Origin: a virus
Taxonomy: Duplodnaviria; Caudoviricetes
Reading direction: 5' to 3' (one strand)
Virus record (IMG/VR): IMGVR_UViG_3300022178_000238
Coordinates: 1 to 29,982 of that record
DNA length: 29,982 nucleotides
The notes below the pieces were generated by a model that was given only the letters and a program-made list of their open reading frames with translations, was not told where the DNA came from and did no database searches. Position numbers and translations under genes: made by a program. Below, piece after piece: positions 15,368-29,955 of this stretch (its first letter is position 1; each line of letters starts with the position of its first letter).

Positions 15368-16081
15368 TTATAGCGCAACCTTTGGTTGACTTTTATGAAA
15401 AGCCTCAATCCACATCTTGCACTCTTTACTACGAACAACATCATCAATACCAAACTCAATGACAGGTACTGGTAGGTTGAAGCGTTGTGCAAGTTCTATG
15501 ATTGTGGATAGGCCACTGGTTTGACGAATGTCTGATTGTGCAATGTCACCATTGATTACGATGCGGCAGTTCTCACCAATTCTGGTGGTGAACATCTTCA
15601 TCTCTTCTGGTGTTGTGTTCTGTGCCTCATCCATAATGACAAATGCGTCACTGAATGAGGACCCACGCATGGTTTCAAAGGGAGCTACGATGATTGCACC
15701 CTTACGTACTGCGTTCTCATACGCACCACCCATGCAGTTCTTAAGCACTTCTACCACAGGCGTAGTCCAAGGAGCCATCTTCTCTTCTAAAGTACCAGGA
15801 AATGACCCTAAACTTCTTGACGAAGGGACATTTGGTCGAGTGAGAATTATCTTATTGATGGTTCCCTGCATGTAGAGTTGCGCTGCCATAGTGCTTGCTA
15901 TGTAAGTCTTACCTGTTCCAGCACAGCCCAAGCTTATGGTTTGAGTGAAGTTGTTAATAGCTTCAATATACCTTGCTTGCATTTTATTCTTCGGCTGGAG
16001 TGCTGTCCGTGTGGTTCGCTCTTCCATAAACTTCTCTTTAATATCACGCTTTGGTTTTAGCTTACGTTGTTGACGCGGCAT
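15368..16081 (-). CDS. phoH: PhoH-family ATPase
   Basis: GCAGTGKT Walker A, KIILTRP, LGSFPGTLEEKMAPW, MRGSSF, MDEAQN, TRIGE, GDIAQSD, VVRS. Start placed at MPRQQ (16081, after GGGGA); 16096 is an alternative. Confidence 0.95.
   Translation of the reverse strand: MPRQQRKLKPKRDIKEKFMEERTTRTALQPKNKMQARYIEAINNFTQTISLGCAGTGKTYIASTMAAQLYMQGTINKIILTRPNVPSSRSLGSFPGTLEEKMAPWTTPVVEVLKNCMGGAYENAVRKGAIIVAPFETMRGSSFSDAFVIMDEAQNTTPEEMKMFTTRIGENCRIVINGDIAQSDIRQTSGLSTIIELAQRFNLPVPVIEFGIDDVVRSKECKMWIEAFHKSQPKVAL
15370..15386 (-). promoter_or_regulatory. Putative phage RNAP promoter, late copy (ACCAAAGGTTGCGCTAT)
   Basis: 15/17 match to the repeat at 27244 and 29939. It sits at the end of phoH directly before the structural module, like T7 phi6.5. 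Confidence 0.78.
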
Positions 16082-17040: not shown

Positions 17041-18822
17041 TTATCCTTGGCAAGAAAGGCATTCATCATCATCGGCATAGTCTTGAAGAGCAATACGGGT
17101 AGGCTTGAAGCTTACTGTGTCTGCTTTTGCACCAGCACTTGTACGAAGATAATACAAACCTTTTAATTTTTTGTTGAAAGCCCTTAGATGGACTTCGTTG
17201 ACGTAAGCTTTATCAGTCCCAGCAGGGAAGAACAAGTTTACAGATTGACCTTGGCAGATAAATGGCTGACGCTCTGCTGCGTGGTCTACAACCCAGCGTT
17301 GGTCTAGTTCAAATGCGGTCTTATAAATTTCCTTATCCCAATCATCCATCCACTCTAAATGCTGTACGCTACCTTCGTGCAGAATGATTGAAGTCCATTG
17401 TTCCTCTATCCAACTATGTCTATCAAACTCATTCTTCCATAAGTATGCATAGTCAAAGATTACCTTTTCAAGGTAAGGGTTGACGACAAGGTGCGCTCCG
17501 ACACGGGTACGGTGTGTGAATGCATTAGACTTTAGAGGTTCAATGGATGCTGAACAGCCAGCAATGATTGACGAGTTGGCGTTAGGAGCAATAGCTAACA
17601 AGTGACTATTACGAACTCCATCAACATCAGGACAAGAACCACGCTCACGGGCCAGATGTACAGTAGCAGCTCTAGCTTGAGCTTTGATATGCGTAAACAT
17701 ATCAGTGTTGTAGGACGTAGCCATTGGAGATTCCCAAGGGATACGTGCGCGTTGCAAAGCACTATGGAACCCCATTGCCCCTAGTCCTAAACTTCTCTCT
17801 TGTGTCGCACTGTAGATAGCCTTAAACAATTCTTTAGGAGCATTAAAACAGAAGAATGAAATCACGTTATCCAGCATTTCAATCAGGTCAGCTACCATAC
17901 TGGTATCTTTCCAATGCTCGTAATGTTCTAGGTTCACACTAGATAAACAACACACTGCTGTTCGTTCCTCAGATGTAGGCAAGTGAATCTCATTGCAAAG
18001 GTTAGACCCGTGTATCTTTAGACCCTGCTCTTTCATGGCTGGTGGTAGATGCCTGTTGGCTTCATCAATGAAGTTGAGGTATGGCTCACCAGTGCGGAAG
18101 CGAGTATCAATCAGACGCTCCCAAAGCCCACGGGCTTGCACAGTTTCACGGACAGTTTTATCAGAAGGGTCAATTAAGTCCCACTGACCATCAGCCATAA
18201 CCGCATCCATAAATGAATCAGGGATGTTCACAGCGTTGTGTATATTAAACGCTTTGCGATTCGGGTCACCACCTGTGGGTACACGGATGTTAATGAACTC
18301 AACTATGTCTGGGTGACTGACATCCATGTATGCAGCATAAGAACCCTTGCGAGTCTTGCCCTGCCTGTACGCAGTCATGTCACTATCGACAGTCTTTAGG
18401 AAAGGAATTGGTGAAGGAGCAACGTCACTAACAGAACGGATGTCGCTCCAATGGCCCCCCACTCCGCCACCTTTAACGGATAACCATCGTAGTTCTGACG
18501 TATGGTCGATAAGACCACCGAGGCTGTCAGGAACATAACTAAGGAAACAACTAATAGGAAGTCCACGAACCTTCTCTCCTTGCGCTGGGGCATTTGATAA
18601 TAGTGGGGATGAGAACATGAACCAACCTTTGCTGGCGTAGTCATAGATTCTCTGAGCTAAAGAGTGGTCGTGTTTACCGCGTCCACCACGACAATAAGCC
18701 ATAGCTGCTCTAGCATATGCATCTTGTGGGTCCTCACCTTCACGACAGTAGTAGTCACTAAGAAGTGTTGATGCTTGGTCGGACAGTAATTTGTTACGGC
18801 TGTAATCAACTACAATGCTCAT
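17041..18822 (-). CDS. nrdA: Class I ribonucleotide reductase alpha subunit (short, no ATP cone)
   Basis: PISCF, GGGVG, GEPY, SNLCNEI, VCCLSS, APNANSS, GQSVN, LYY, C-terminal CLSCQG. Start placed at ATG 18822 (GGAG upstream). Confidence 0.96.
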   Translation of the reverse strand: MSIVVDYSRNKLLSDQASTLLSDYYCREGEDPQDAYARAAMAYCRGGRGKHDHSLAQRIYDYASKGWFMFSSPLLSNAPAQGEKVRGLPISCFLSYVPDSLGGLIDHTSELRWLSVKGGGVGGHWSDIRSVSDVAPSPIPFLKTVDSDMTAYRQGKTRKGSYAAYMDVSHPDIVEFINIRVPTGGDPNRKAFNIHNAVNIPDSFMDAVMADGQWDLIDPSDKTVRETVQARGLWERLIDTRFRTGEPYLNFIDEANRHLPPAMKEQGLKIHGSNLCNEIHLPTSEERTAVCCLSSVNLEHYEHWKDTSMVADLIEMLDNVISFFCFNAPKELFKAIYSATQERSLGLGAMGFHSALQRARIPWESPMATSYNTDMFTHIKAQARAATVHLARERGSCPDVDGVRNSHLLAIAPNANSSIIAGCSASIEPLKSNAFTHRTRVGAHLVVNPYLEKVIFDYAYLWKNEFDRHSWIEEQWTSIILHEGSVQHLEWMDDWDKEIYKTAFELDQRWVVDHAAERQPFICQGQSVNLFFPAGTDKAYVNEVHLRAFNKKLKGLYYLRTSAGAKADTVSFKPTRIALQDYADDDECLSCQG

Positions 18823-19039
18823 GTATCCACTCCGTTGTTTCTCTGATTCCTTTGAACCCAATTAGTGTGGCTCCAGTTTCTGTGTTGATTACTGTTGGTA
18901 CACTACGAACTTTGTAATGTATTGCTGCGTCAATGTCCTTGCCTATGTCGATTTCATCATAGTCAACCTCTTCATGGTTGAGGACAGTGCTGACTGCTTT
19001 ACAAGGCTGACACCCTTCAGTATAAAATTTTATAATCAT
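18806..19039 (-). CDS. Thioredoxin/glutaredoxin-like (NrdH-like) redoxin
   Basis: CQPC active site, RSVP cis-Pro motif, GF; 77 aa. The ATG at 19039 overlaps the upstream stop (ATGA) and the gene lies directly before nrdA. Confidence 0.88.
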   Translation of the reverse strand: MIIKFYTEGCQPCKAVSTVLNHEEVDYDEIDIGKDIDAAIHYKVRSVPTVINTETGATLIGFKGIRETTEWIHEHCS

Positions 19040-19785
19040 ATTAGTTTTCCTTGCTCCCACTCACATGAGAATCCACAGTCAAGTGGTTGGTCACGTTTAA
19101 AGTTGCCTCGGTCTGGATGTAATTCATCTAGATACACAGGCCCATCTTTGTCTTTATTTATTGCATGGCCTATGTCTCTCTCAAGCTTGGCTAGCTTGTT
19201 AAAGGCTTCAGGGAAGTCAACACGGATTGCATTAAAATACCCCATTCCTCCCTTTACACATCCGATACAATTGTTGTTGGCGTACCCTAGCCTGTACATT
19301 TCAGGCAACGTAAACCCCATGCGACTAAACCACCTCATGCAGTCTGGCTTTGTAATAGACTTATCCACCAGTATGAAATCAGTATCGACTTCATTATTGG
19401 AATCAATAAACCTATCAACTCTGCTCATCTCATCAATGGTGTATCCAAAGATTTGTACATCGCCATGCCTTTGGTAATCTTTACGTACATTCTTTTTAAG
19501 AATCATTGTGCATGGCGCACCTGTTGGCCCTTTAATAAACTTACGCTTGTGAAACACTTTGAAGATAGAGTAGTCCATTGACTCATCACCTATTATCTTT
19601 ACAGGTATGCCTGTCTTTTCTACAAACTCATTTAGAAAACGCAGGTTATCTTTAGACTCTTCTTTAACTCTGCAATAAACAGCCTCCATCCTGTCTCCAT
19701 ATTTTTCATATGCTAGGTAAGTTGCATAGGCACTGGCAGCACCGCAGCTAAACCAACTGATTACACGGGATTGATTATTTATCAT
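19036..19785 (-). CDS. PAPS-reductase-like / adenine nucleotide alpha-hydrolase (PP-loop) protein, Cys-rich
   Basis: N-terminal strand plus SCGAAS loop, GAPCTMILKK, LPEMYRLGYANNNCIGCVKGG, C-terminal DCGFSC. Confidence 0.72.
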   Translation of the reverse strand: MINNQSRVISWFSCGAASAYATYLAYEKYGDRMEAVYCRVKEESKDNLRFLNEFVEKTGIPVKIIGDESMDYSIFKVFHKRKFIKGPTGAPCTMILKKNVRKDYQRHGDVQIFGYTIDEMSRVDRFIDSNNEVDTDFILVDKSITKPDCMRWFSRMGFTLPEMYRLGYANNNCIGCVKGGMGYFNAIRVDFPEAFNKLAKLERDIGHAINKDKDGPVYLDELHPDRGNFKRDQPLDCGFSCEWEQGKLI

Positions 19786-19809
19786 AGGGTTTTTATTCCA
19801 TGTTGTACT

Positions 19810-19830
19810 TACTTCAGAACTGAAAGTATT
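19810..19830. repeat. 21-bp imperfect palindrome, copy B (operator-like)
   Basis: TACTTCAGAACTGAAAGTATT; 19/21 identical to 27270-27290; in the gap upstream of the PP-loop gene. Confidence 0.65.
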
Positions 19831-20060
19831 TAGTCATACTTAAGATGCTGGAGTTCTAGCCATAGCTGTGCGTAGTGGATAATCTTTTTAACATCAGATT
19901 CAAACTGACCTTTGTGCGGTGCGCGTGTCGCATACTTCACGATGTTGGCAGCACAGAAATCTAGTTCGTTCTTCATGATGTATTCGATAGGCTGGATGGG
20001 GTGCTTGTAATGGTCACCCCCTTCTTGGAAGTCAGACGCTAAGTTTATGGTGGGGTCCAT
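19830..20060 (-). CDS. DUF3310-family protein (related to T7 gp1.7 nucleotide kinase domain)
   Basis: QEGGDHYK..IQPIEYI, FCAANIVKYATRAPHKG, DVKKIIHY. Confidence 0.82.
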   Translation of the reverse strand: MDPTINLASDFQEGGDHYKHPIQPIEYIMKNELDFCAANIVKYATRAPHKGQFESDVKKIIHYAQLWLELQHLKYD

Positions 20061-23661: not shown

Positions 23662-25305
23662 TTAGAACACAGCCATCACATCATCAACAGGGACTATGTC
23701 AAACACAGTCTGCTCGTAGAGATGTCCAGTTGCTTGGTTGTAGTTAAGTGGTATGGTCATGCCAGTAGACTGACCTGTGTAGCGGTCCTTAAGAACACGG
23801 AAGATAGTAGTCTGCCTGTCCTTAATGTTCTCAGCTTGTTGGTCACGCTCCATGCCGAACATGTAGTGACACCAGAAGCCGATAGCACGGGAGCCTTTGA
23901 AGTGGCGGATGCTTACACGACCACCTTCTTCATGGGGCTTACCATCAGGCGTAGCTAAGTGAGACACCATCATAATAATAATGCCTAGCCTCTTTGCTAG
24001 TTTGGCTATGTCAGAAGTGATGCGCTCCAACTCAACACGCTCATCAGTACCCTGCCCTGTGGCTAGTGCTGTGAGATGGTCAACGTAGAACACACAGATA
24101 CCTTCGGAGTGATGCATGTACTCAATGTTAGACTTAACAACATCCCACTCGCAGACTCCAAAGGAATCATAGAGGCGAATCATGTCAGACTCTTCGAGTG
24201 CATCAATGGCTTGACTGCGTTGTTCATTGGTCCAATCACCATCAGGTATGTGGAACAATTTACCAGCATGTTTACCAGCTAAACGAATGGCAGTCTCAGT
24301 GGGCATCTGCTCTAAGAAGAACACACCGACTCTCTCTTTTAACTCTTGCATATCGTAGATGATTTGCTGTGTTAAGAAGTCAGTCTTGCCTACACCAGTT
24401 CCTGCACCCAAACAATAAACCTCACCATACCTCCGTCCATAGGTCTTATCATTGAGCGTCTTAAGGAACCAAGGCAGGCCCCATTCCACAGGCTTATCAA
24501 GTTCTGCTCGTATGTCTTTAAGACTCACGATACCATCAGGCCTGAACGTCTTTGCATTCCATATAGCATCCATAATTAAACGATGCTTACCTGCCATCAA
24601 CGCTTCGTTGGCATCCTTGAAACCATTGATAGTTCCTATCTTACATTTACCTGCAGGGAACAATGGTGCAATAGATTTGGCTGCTGCCTCACCTGCTGCA
24701 TCTCCATCCATCAGTAGGATAATTTCTGAGAACTTATTAAAGTAACCCATGTTCGCAGCAACAGATTTAGCTGCACCTGCTGCACCATTTGGCACAGATA
24801 TAACAGGCCACTTGTTGTCTTGGACCTGTGAAATAGACATGGCGTCTATGGAGCCTTCGCAGATTACAAGCTTCTTGCCTGACTCAAATAAGTTAGTGCC
24901 AAACATAGGCATCTGACTGAAGTCACCCAAGATGGGGAAGCTCTTATCTGCAGTGCGTAGTTGTTGTGCGACCAGCTTGCCTTCAACATTGTGAAGAGGA
25001 CAGATGTGAACTGGTTGTCCGTTGTGACTACCAACCTTGTAACCAAAGTGACGGGCTGTCTCTTCAGTGATTCCACGTTGTCTCAGTGAACGGACTTCAC
25101 CATCTATCAATGAACTTGCCATGCGTTTGCTACTCCTAAAAGTTGTGGTGTCTCCACCCTCATCAGGCCACTCCATGTGGTCACAGTTAAGGGAGAAGCA
25201 GTAAGCTCTACCAGAGGCGTAACGTGCTAGGTTGTCGCGTGAGTTACAGCTAGGGCAACTCTCGCGTCCAACCATTGGGCTATCATCTTGGTCGCGCTTG
25301 CTCAT
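23662..25305 (-). CDS. Primase/helicase (T7 gp4-like)
   Basis: N-terminal Cys4 zinc finger (CPSC...CFSLNC), TOPRIM EGSID / DGDAAG / KDANE, Walker A GAGTGVGKT, VDHL, SHL, KGSRAI, KDRYTG. Confidence 0.97.
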   Translation of the reverse strand: MSKRDQDDSPMVGRESCPSCNSRDNLARYASGRAYCFSLNCDHMEWPDEGGDTTTFRSSKRMASSLIDGEVRSLRQRGITEETARHFGYKVGSHNGQPVHICPLHNVEGKLVAQQLRTADKSFPILGDFSQMPMFGTNLFESGKKLVICEGSIDAMSISQVQDNKWPVISVPNGAAGAAKSVAANMGYFNKFSEIILLMDGDAAGEAAAKSIAPLFPAGKCKIGTINGFKDANEALMAGKHRLIMDAIWNAKTFRPDGIVSLKDIRAELDKPVEWGLPWFLKTLNDKTYGRRYGEVYCLGAGTGVGKTDFLTQQIIYDMQELKERVGVFFLEQMPTETAIRLAGKHAGKLFHIPDGDWTNEQRSQAIDALEESDMIRLYDSFGVCEWDVVKSNIEYMHHSEGICVFYVDHLTALATGQGTDERVELERITSDIAKLAKRLGIIIMMVSHLATPDGKPHEEGGRVSIRHFKGSRAIGFWCHYMFGMERDQQAENIKDRQTTIFRVLKDRYTGQSTGMTIPLNYNQATGHLYEQTVFDIVPVDDVMAVF

Positions 25306-25496
25306 TACAGTGAGTAGCTAGCGTAGGCTTTACCACGAACACCAGTCTTCATGTTCACGTTGATGGTTCGGCCTTGCTTGTGTAGTGAGTGGACCACAGC
25401 AGCTAGTCGGGTGATTCCATAAAGGCCAATGGCTTCGATGGAAGTTAACGAGCGTCCAGTTTCTAGGTGTGTCATTACTTGATTAGATTGGGTCAT
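25305..25496 (-). CDS. Small winged helix-turn-helix DNA-binding protein (HTH_39-like)
   Basis: MTQSNQVMTHLETGRSLTSIEAIGLYGITRLAAVVHSLHKQG...YASYSL (63 aa). Start moved to 25496 because the longer ORF begins inside the promoter. Confidence 0.78.
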   Translation of the reverse strand: MTQSNQVMTHLETGRSLTSIEAIGLYGITRLAAVVHSLHKQGRTINVNMKTGVRGKAYASYSL

Positions 25497-25568
25497 AGTT
25501 TTTCTCTCGGTTGTTGAGTTCATAAGAATGATGGCCCTCCGAAAAGGGCATACAGTTTGATTACTGTG

Positions 25569-25585
25569 ATGGTGCAACCTTTGCT
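25569..25585 (-). promoter_or_regulatory. Putative phage RNAP promoter (AGCAAAGGTTGCACCAT)
   Basis: 16/17 match to consensus; overlaps the amidase stop; upstream of HTH-primase/helicase, like T7 phi3.8. Confidence 0.82.
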
Positions 25586-27038: not shown

Positions 27039-27167
27039 TTATTTTGAAAAGTTCTTTATGAACTCGTCTATTAAAATTCCCTGCCCTGCTAATGCAGCAG
27101 TCAGGTCTACTGGTAGAAGCTCACCATTCATAATTAGTAAGGCGGCTTTCATTTGTTCGTAAGTCAT
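27039..27167 (-). CDS. 42-aa hypothetical protein not in the ORF track
   Basis: GGAGG-TCACAA-ATG; translates to MTYEQMKAALLIMNGELLPVDLTAALAGQGILIDEFIKNFSK; fills the gap between terminator and SSB. Confidence 0.75.
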   Translation of the reverse strand: MTYEQMKAALLIMNGELLPVDLTAALAGQGILIDEFIKNFSK

Positions 27168-27180
27168 TTGTGACCTCCAC

Positions 27181-27207
27181 AAAAAAGCCCCTGTTTAACG
27201 AGGGGCT
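27181..27207 (-). terminator. Intrinsic terminator after the RNAP gene (TE-like)
   Basis: Minus strand AGCCCCT-CGTTAAAC-AGGGGCT followed by a T run. Confidence 0.85.
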
Positions 27208-27243: not shown

Positions 27244-27260
27244 ATAGTGCAACCTTTGCT
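27244..27260 (-). promoter_or_regulatory. Putative phage RNAP promoter (AGCAAAGGTTGCACTAT)
   Basis: Identical 17-mer to 29939-29955; just downstream of the RNAP gene, like T7 phi1.1; ends in CACTAT as T7 and SP6 promoters do. Confidence 0.87.
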
Positions 27261-27269
27261 ATCTGCAAC

Positions 27270-27290
27270 TACTTCCGTACTGAAAGTATT
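27270..27290. repeat. 21-bp imperfect palindrome, copy A (operator-like)
   Basis: TACTTCCGTACTGAAAGTATT between the RNAP stop and the phage promoter; 19/21 identical to 19810-19830. Confidence 0.65.
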
Positions 27291-29938: not shown

Positions 29939-29955
29939 ATAGTGCAACCTTTGCT
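29939..29955 (-). promoter_or_regulatory. Putative phage RNAP promoter upstream of the RNAP gene
   Basis: AGCAAAGGTTGCACTAT followed by GG, about 75 nt upstream of the RNAP start codon. Confidence 0.82.

What the first reader, a model, noticed from the sequence alone, without database searches (positions are those of the whole stretch)
18806..19830. Cys-rich PP-loop (PAPS-reductase-like) enzyme translationally coupled to thioredoxin and RNR: candidate novel nucleotide or sulfur-modification system
Seen: a 249-aa protein with an SCGAAS loop, APC..LKK, NNCIGCVKGG and terminal CGFSC. Its stop overlaps the redoxin ATG (ATGA), it has its own operator-like palindrome upstream, and it sits between a gp1.7-related DUF3310 gene and RNR. 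Established: this superfamily includes thioredoxin-dependent PAPS/APS reductases, DndC, tRNA thiolases and QueC, which use adenylation chemistry and Fe-S or Zn cofactors. No cys, dnd or que partner genes are in the window. Inference: rather than sulfate assimilation, it may modify nucleotides, DNA or tRNA, or destroy adenine-nucleotide defence signals, using the phage redoxin.
Basis: partly seen in the sequence, partly recalled or inferred. Interest (0 to 1): 0.75.

Follow-up and report, generated by a model that had tools for sequence, protein, structure and literature searches.

The report
Optional phage PptA-like sulfur-transfer enzyme
This T7-like aquatic phage carries an optional gene, missing from close sister phages that keep the neighbouring thioredoxin, whose protein is 46% identical to PptA (a phage protein deposited in one structure entry with the bacterial sulfur donor IscS), so it likely uses host sulfur to mark phage DNA against restriction and is a new member of a very large known phage family rather than a new thioredoxin-coupled system.

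Summary
The ORF, its motifs and the ATGA overlap are real; the 'system' is not. The 249-aa protein belongs to PHROG 424 (E 6.5e-47) and is 46% identical over 242 aa to PptA of Vibrio phage VH-5. PDB 21FY holds PptA together with E. coli IscS. Its best defence-profile match is SspD; CysH aligns only weakly. The model is a PP-loop/PAPS-reductase fold (pLDDT 90, Z 13.7). The gene is a solo insert of about 790 bp. Six sister phages run DUF3310-trx-nrdA with an 84-100% identical thioredoxin and no such gene, and contigs in 3 of 4 laid runs skip it. Only 1 of 88 homologous viral loci has a thioredoxin directly downstream. The palindrome is a decayed second copy of a hairpin after the RNA-polymerase gene and is absent from a 96%-identical allele. 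Best reading (inferred, 0.55): an IscS-fed Fe-S/ATP enzyme that phosphorothioates phage DNA to evade restriction. No PptA paper turned up in 10 searches, so the activity is unproven here. This scan noted the family before on other genomes. New member of a known kind.

The parts
19036..19785 (-). PptA-family (PHROG 424, 'PAPS reductase-like') PP-loop enzyme, 249 aa; core Cys 92, 173, 176, 237, 241
   Evidence: 46% to PptA; fold; conservation
19044..19831 (-). Optional insert (gene plus 44-nt leader) that replaces an 11-12-nt DUF3310-trx spacer of sister phages
   Evidence: blastn break 19049/19832 against L102, L104, L119; contig joints 19040 or 19043 to 19832
19810..19829 (-). Imperfect palindrome directly after the DUF3310 stop; decayed second copy of the post-RNAP hairpin, not conserved in the L004 allele
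27270..27289 (-). First copy of the 20-bp element, right after the RNA polymerase stop; 7-bp RNA hairpin (z -2.14), also present after RNAP in L187, L188 and L190
18806..19039 (-). Thioredoxin/glutaredoxin (CQPC), 77 aa; belongs to the nrdAB module, a neighbour and not a partner
17041..18822 (-). nrdA, class I ribonucleotide reductase large subunit; start overlaps the redoxin end by 17 nt
19830..20060 (-). DUF3310 / gp1.7-like nucleotide-kinase-related gene, upstream flank of the insertion site

Best explanation
An optional, stand-alone phage gene of the PptA/NinC family (PHROG 424) whose product likely takes sulfur from the host cysteine desulfurase IscS and is predicted to install phosphorothioate in phage DNA so that the genome would escape host restriction. 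Shown: family membership, PP-loop fold, five core cysteines, solo mobility, independence from the thioredoxin. Inferred steps: (1) IscS binds and supplies sulfur and/or builds an Fe-S cluster on C92/C173/C176, with the C237-x3-C241 tail as fourth ligand or sulfur carrier; (2) the S-x-G-x-x-S loop binds ATP and adenylates a backbone phosphate; (3) sulfur displaces AMP; (4) marked DNA passes as self to DndFGH/SspE-type systems or blocks restriction nucleases. The thioredoxin serves NrdAB; the ATGA overlap arises because the gene landed in the redoxin's ribosome-binding region.
For: PDB 21FY chain C 'PptA' is hit at E 8e-71 over residues 2-242. It matches the VH-5 protein QGH73774.1 over the stretch shown, 112/242 identical to the window protein. 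The same entry contains E. coli IscS. PADLOC SspD is the only defence profile hit by the window protein (E 4e-7, residues 17-205) and is hit by 113 of 113 close homologues; the E. coli CysH control reaches only 0.006 over 48 residues. Foldseek's first seven rows are ATP-dependent sulfur insertases or their close kin (LarE, TtuA, NcsA, PH0300). C92, C173, C176, C237, C241 are kept in 91 of 91 viral ORFs including PptA, in 32-33 of 33 bacterial-genome ORFs and at 90% or more in 72 sequences at 33-56% identity. Annotated neighbours are mostly DNA-transaction genes; DNA methyltransferases lie within 3 genes in 13 of 91 viral loci and within 2 genes in 6 of 33 genome loci. Of 26 long homologues scanned, fusions are to a Dam methylase, a C5 methylase, a ResIII helicase, an HTH and an ISL3 piece, none to thioredoxin; 7 are interrupted at about residue 170 and the two read in full carry an intein exactly at C173. 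A phage PAPS-domain-Dam fusion with one neighbouring gene gave escape from Dnd (passages of 10.1101/2021.05.05.442762).
Against: No paper describing PptA's activity was found in 10 searches; reading 'Ppt' as phage phosphorothioation is my guess. Sharing an entry with IscS does not name the substrate, and Fe-S assembly alone would explain it. Characterised PT writers need a partner P-loop NTPase and a DNA-recognition subunit (passages of PMC12914056; PMC12707154), and no such partner recurs in these loci. The loop lacks the KD of the canonical SGGKDS (canonical motif recalled; variants), so adenylation is not assured. The SspD score is weak (28 bits) and that profile also rings in 6 of 14 control genomes; DndC profiles are not hit by the window protein. 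VIA ranks PAPS/APS reductases first (Z 13.7, 13.0), and 18 of 72 diverse members weakly hit the NCBIfam PAPS-reductase model (best 1e-4). The Dnd-escape protein was not shown to be a close relative: no such record appeared among the 60 of 79 hits listed or the 30 listed.
Confidence: 0.55

Rival explanations
1. Anti-defence by decoy: the protein binds IscS or mimics DndC/SspD and jams the host's phosphorothioate (or other IscS-dependent) machinery without modifying phage DNA.
For: Same PDB entry as IscS; PP-loop lacks the KD pair; no ATPase or DNA-recognition partner; the Dnd escape was not shown to be through modification in the passages read.
Against: Strict conservation of five Cys plus K97, R122, N172, K178 across 33-56% identity and inteins at C173 point to a catalytic site. 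Removing host self-marks would not by itself protect phage DNA from DndFGH (reasoning).
Confidence: 0.15
2. A TtuA/NcsA/LarE-like thiolase that puts sulfur on a base or nucleotide (thio-base in DNA, tRNA or a dNTP precursor) using IscS sulfur.
For: Foldseek's top rows are LarE, TtuA and NcsA (E 6e-5 to 2e-4); IscS also feeds tRNA thiolation (established knowledge; ThiI, MnmA, TtcA named in the passage); this copy sits among nucleotide-metabolism genes.
Against: TM-scores are only 0.36-0.44 and VIA scores these enzymes (Z 9.3-11.2) below PAPS/APS reductases; the family's usual neighbours and fusions are DNA methylases, helicases and replication genes; the nucleotide-metabolism site is only one of many landing places.
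Confidence: 0.17
3. One reading: a thioredoxin-dependent PAPS/APS reductase (auxiliary sulfur metabolism), or an enzyme recycled by the phage redoxin.
For: ATGA overlap with the redoxin; best VIA matches are PAPS/APS reductases with the alignment to 2GOY running to residue 236; the DCGFSC tail recalls the ECGLH catalytic tail of CysH (motif recalled).
Against: No Pfam PF01507 or NCBIfam cysH hit for the window protein; hhalign to E. coli CysH gives probability 1.8% and 30%, N-terminal 52-59 columns only, against 96% for lambda NinC; the redoxin stays when the gene is absent; the 93%-identical copy in L011 overlaps thyX by the same ATGA; no cys genes near any homologue.
Confidence: 0.06
4. It destroys or modifies adenine-nucleotide defence signals.
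For: PP-loop fold binds adenine nucleotides; the QueC-like defence enzyme Cap9 is a distant fold match (Z 9.6).
Against: Does not explain IscS in the PptA entry; no profile or neighbourhood link to signal-degrading enzymes in any call.
Confidence: 0.04

Closest known systems
PptA of Vibrio phage vB_VhaP_VH-5 (PDB 21FY chain C; QGH73774.1), deposited with E. coli IscS
   Same: 46% identity over 242 aa, same length (250 aa), seven shared cysteines, S-C-G-A-x-S loop, stand-alone gene in an Autographiviridae genome
   Different: Lies after the RNA polymerase gene in VH-5, between DUF3310 and thioredoxin here; EESKDN for EEHPDN; IscS binding and activity untested for this protein; PptA's published activity not seen
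PHROG 424 'phosphoadenosine phosphosulfate reductase' / lambda NinC
   Same: E 6.5e-47 to the PHROG; hhalign 96% to NinC over 157 columns incl. the CT..LK and NCxxCxK motifs
   Different: NinC is a 290-aa distant branch with an SGGRTS loop; the family name is an annotation, not a tested function
SspD / DndC / BrxP (sulfur-inserting subunits of bacterial DNA phosphorothioation)
   Same: SspD profile hit in 113 of 113 homologues; Cys + CxxC layout like DndC C146/C280/C283 (passage of PMC12193691); IscS as sulfur source
   Different: No SspBC/DndDE/BrxC partner; phage-borne and solo; weak score; DndC and BrxP profiles not hit by the window protein
CysH (PAPS/APS reductase)
   Same: Fold (Z 13.7 and 13.0, 7-12% identity)
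   Different: No family hit, only an N-terminal alignment, no cys operon, no constant thioredoxin partner

Membership tests
PptA / PHROG 424 | Full-length sequence homology to PptA and the PHROG profile | tested here: met
   E 8e-71, 46% over 242 aa; PHROG E 6.5e-47
PptA / PHROG 424 | Conserved cysteine set and S-x-G-x-x-S loop shared with PptA | tested here: met
   C14, C92, C149, C173, C176, C237, C241 identical in PptA and 91 of 91 rows
PptA / PHROG 424 | Stand-alone gene in a phage genome | tested here: met
   No recurring partner in 91 viral and 33 genome loci; VH-5 context
PptA / PHROG 424 | Binds host cysteine desulfurase IscS | not tested
SspD/DndC/BrxP phosphorothioation writers | PAPS-reductase-like PP-loop domain with Cys + CxxC Fe-S ligands | tested here: met
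   Fold; SspD profile E 4e-7; C92, C173, C176
SspD/DndC/BrxP phosphorothioation writers | Adjacent P-loop NTPase and DNA-recognition subunit (dndDE, sspBC, brxC) | tested here: not met
   None among 29 window ORFs or 297 neighbours of homologues; criterion from PMC12914056
SspD/DndC/BrxP phosphorothioation writers | Produces phosphorothioate in DNA | not testable with these tools
   Needs LC-MS/MS or PT-seq
CysH PAPS/APS reductase | Family profile match (PF01507, NCBIfam cysH models) over the domain | tested here: not met
   No hit for the window protein; hhalign 1.8% and 30%, N-terminus only; 18 of 72 distant members hit PRK02090 weakly
CysH PAPS/APS reductase | Linkage to cys genes or a dedicated thioredoxin | tested here: not met
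   Redoxin adjacent in 1 of 88 downstream, 0 of 88 upstream, 0 of 121 genome-locus neighbours; no cys genes
CysH PAPS/APS reductase | PAPS-reductase fold | tested here: met
   Z 13.7, rmsd 3.7, 170 aligned to 7RGE; Z 13.0, rmsd 4.0, 181 aligned to 2GOY
TtuA/NcsA/LarE sulfur insertases | Fold and Fe-S cysteine layout | tested here: inconclusive
   Foldseek E 6e-5 to 2e-4 but TM 0.36-0.44, 13-16% identity; VIA Z 9.3-11.2
QueC | Full-length homology and que gene partners | tested here: not met
   Only residues 1-59 align, E 0.04; no que families in window or neighbours

The most novel reading that the evidence does not exclude
A one-gene phage phosphorothioation writer that needs none of the DndD/SspC/BrxC ATPases or DNA-recognition subunits of bacterial systems and instead rides on the phage replisome (frequent primase-helicase, polA and SF2-helicase neighbours; helicase and methylase fusions), drawing sulfur from host IscS. 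Thousands of phage genes now counted as 'auxiliary sulfur metabolism' would then be backbone-modifying anti-restriction genes, and carrier and non-carrier sister phages in one water sample would differ in backbone chemistry.
Probability: 0.3. Interest if true: 0.7.

Novelty: new member of a known kind. Interest (0 to 1): 0.36.

Why it matters
Phage 'PAPS reductases' are commonly read as sulfur-metabolism genes. This family is large (4658 proteins at E<=0.001; 1674 clusters at 50% identity), travels alone and has a close member deposited with IscS, which points to anti-restriction sulfur chemistry instead. The locus gives a clean natural test: near-identical phages with and without exactly this gene occur in the same sequencing runs. 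The family and its IscS link are already in the PDB and were noted by this scan on other genomes, so this window adds an example and a negative result (no thioredoxin coupling), not a new system.

Tried and rejected
Thioredoxin coupling: rejected. Dedicated operator: rejected as gene-specific; no sigma-70 site in the leader, no phage-promoter motif there; the L004 leader hairpin matched only four unrelated contigs of one kind, one other contig and itself. The idea that the leader is a relic of an earlier position after the RNAP gene (as in VH-5) found no further example in the loci held. Motif bias as a clue to the modified site: GAAC/GTTC are at expectation (0.96) and GATC avoidance is shared by non-carriers, so it says nothing. 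Expression: one RNA run (X15) covers only the first part of the gene at depth 2.5, no evidence either way. 21FY is not in the fold libraries (cut-off April 2026), so its title and geometry were not seen. Complex prediction with IscS was not available; nothing was folded. A search for longer homologues in the word-indexed database could not be made; fused forms come from the top 150 only. The record of Vibrio phage 44E38.1 (Dnd-escape gene) was not located by three accession guesses, so its homology to this family is untested. ESM Atlas only repeated the PAPS-reductase label. Ten literature searches found no PptA paper; subscription journals are not covered and no supplements were read.
Full report
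Context. The window is a 29,982-base virus record, about 73% complete, of a T7-like phage with all main genes on the minus strand: RNA polymerase, SSB, endonuclease, amidase, primase-helicase, DNA polymerase A, ThyX, exonuclease, DUF3310, the target gene, a redoxin, nrdA, nrdB, phoH, then the virion genes. The nearest isolates are only 37-39% identical in RNA polymerase, so the host is unknown. Fourteen of 24 listed runs hold half or more of the sampled words; they are labelled marine, freshwater or unspecified metagenome.

Observation. The ORF (19036-19785, 249 aa), its four motifs, the ATGA overlap with a 77-aa CQPC redoxin and the flanking genes are as described. The overlap is ordinary here: 13 of 28 junctions overlap and 23 of 28 are within 12 nt. 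The AlphaFold model (mean pLDDT 90.2, 113 sequences) matches PAPS reductase (Z 13.7, rmsd 3.7, 170 aligned) and APS reductase 2GOY (Z 13.0), then other PP-loop enzymes; Foldseek lists LarE, TtuA and NcsA first, with TM 0.36-0.44.

Identity. Pfam gives no hit and NCBIfam one weak hypothetical; PHROG 424 'PAPS reductase' scores E 6.5e-47. The only significant PDB sequence match is 21FY chain C, named PptA (E 8e-71; also the only significant one for profiles A1 and A2). It matches the Vibrio phage VH-5 protein over the stretch shown, and that protein is 46% identical to ours over 242 residues. Searching the PDB with E. coli IscS lists 21FY as a further entry, so the entry holds both proteins; that they form a complex is inferred. 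Among defence profiles the protein hits only SspD (E 4e-7, residues 17-205), as do 113 of 113 close homologues; E. coli CysH as control gives 0.006 over a short stretch, although the profile does ring in 6 of 14 control genomes. hhalign gives 96% to lambda NinC but 1.8% and 30% to CysH. The family is large: 4658 proteins, 1674 clusters at 50% identity, 79 phage and 28 plasmid records.

Anatomy. In 91 rows (window, PptA, 89 viral ORFs; the frameshifted L011 and truncated L074 dropped) seven cysteines are invariant; those loci were picked with patterns that include C173, so that column is biased. In 33 of 37 bacterial-genome loci with a callable ORF, C173, C176, C237 and C241 are in 33, C92 in 32, while C14 (15) and C149 (19) vary. 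In 72 sequences (window plus 71 near-full-length representatives chosen from 150) S13, G15, S18, R122, N172, C176 and C241 are invariant and C92, C173, C237, K97, K178 nearly so. C92 plus C173-x2-C176 parallels the three DndC cysteines shared with APS reductase (passage of PMC12193691). The loop is S-x-G-x-x-S without the KD of the canonical motif (canonical form recalled). Seven of the top 150 representatives are split at about residue 170; five carry LAGLIDADG domains, and the two read in full have an intein exactly before the C173 equivalent, which marks this as a site under strong constraint.

The thioredoxin is a neighbour, not a partner. Among 80 loci found with nrdA, 15 have a match to the redoxin; only the two copies of the window's own strain have the PP-loop gene; six (L101-L104, L115, L119) run DUF3310-trx-nrdA directly with an 84-100% identical redoxin. 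The insert replaces an 11-12-nt spacer. Contigs in 3 of 4 laid runs join 19040 or 19043 to 19832, skipping exactly the gene, and in X1 and X10 they occur beside carrier contigs. Close homologues sit elsewhere: before thyX with the same ATGA overlap (L011, 93%), and between a C5 methylase and a helicase (L005, L006, 91%). Over 91 viral loci (nine self, duplicate or annotated loci dropped; some of the rest are near-duplicates) the next gene is a redoxin in 1 of 88 (L004, same site) and the previous gene in 0 of 88; one more locus has a glutaredoxin three genes away. In 121 neighbours from 33 genome loci there is none. No cys, dnd, ssp or que gene appears in any of these. Annotated neighbours are primase-helicase, polA, SNF2 and SF2 helicases, NinB, NinG, RusA, Cro-like regulators and DNA methylases. 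Among 26 long homologues the annotated fusions are to Dam and C5 methylases, a ResIII helicase, an HTH and an ISL3 piece.

The palindrome. It has 8-bp arms with one bulge, reached by 3.7% of shuffles, and does not fold better than shuffles. It is an 18/20 copy of an element right after the RNA polymerase stop, which forms a 7-bp hairpin (z -2.14) and recurs there in three other contigs. The L004 allele has an unrelated leader with its own 8-bp hairpin. A hairpin after the upstream stop may matter for the RNA, but a gene-specific operator is not supported.

Mechanism. Most likely (0.55) the enzyme takes sulfur from host IscS, adenylates a DNA backbone phosphate and swaps in sulfur, protecting phage DNA. 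The chemistry is borrowed from DndC/SspD, where the desulfurase donates and the PAPS-reductase-like subunit transfers sulfur (passages of PMC12839542; PMC10853773; PMC12707154). A phage PAPS-Dam fusion with one neighbouring gene conferred escape from Dnd (passages of 10.1101/2021.05.05.442762), and Aca-regulated phage PAPS reductases have been proposed as anti-RM or anti-PT genes (passages of PMC13551039); their function is called open in PMC11437467 (passages). Against: known PT writers need an NTPase partner (passages of PMC12914056), absent here; the loop is degenerate; no PptA paper was found in ten searches of an open-access library, so the activity rests on inference. All papers were seen as search passages, not whole texts, and no supplements were read. 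Rivals: base or tRNA thiolation (0.17), IscS/Dnd decoy (0.15), CysH-like with the redoxin (0.06), signal destruction (0.04).

Verdict. A real, intact, optional gene and a close member of the PptA/NinC family; it works like SspD by inference but fails the partner test for membership in Dnd, Ssp or BREX-4. Earlier notes of this scan report the same family on other genomes; a search by sequence found none for this stretch. New member of a known kind; interest 0.36.

Noticed in passing
window 29939-29955, 27244-27260, 25569-25585, 15370-15386 (-): Four copies of a 17-bp motif (0-2 mismatches; 0.15 expected) upstream of RNAP, ssb, the wHTH gene and in the phoH end; it recalls an SP6-type phage RNA polymerase promoter (resemblance recalled).
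   Followed up: partly
window 1-29982: GATC occurs at one site only (15144; 2 against 204 expected on both strands) and CCGG never (33 expected); the GATC avoidance is the same in carrier and non-carrier sisters and in VH-5.
   Followed up: partly
L011:4733-5463: The 93%-identical homologue has a frameshift in a T run near codon 50; broken gene or assembly error not distinguished.
   Followed up: partly
P0124, P0146, P0160, P0197, P0237, P0246, P0263: Homologues interrupted at the NNNC motif; P0124 and P0246 show an intein inserted before the first Cys of CxxC, and P0124 is otherwise very close to VH-5 PptA.
   Followed up: partly
P0143, P0216: P0143 (553 aa) appears to join two PP-loop-type domains in tandem; P0216 (883 aa) joins the domain to a C-terminal region that looks polA-like by eye, without a Pfam hit.
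   Followed up: no
L101:170-680, L102:3140-3670, L115:114-660: Sister phages without the gene carry 153-165-aa HNH-like ORFs at other junctions of the replication module, so this module has several insertion hot spots (HNH judged by eye).
   Followed up: no
window 27039-27182 (-): Small ORF (about 42-47 aa) in the gap between RNAP and ssb, after a terminator-like hairpin; unannotated.
   Followed up: no
window 25305-25577 (-): A winged-HTH gene (HTH_39) unusual for T7-like phages; a related gene directly follows the PP-loop homologue in L029, L031 and L197. Whether it binds the duplicated 20-bp element is untested.
   Followed up: no
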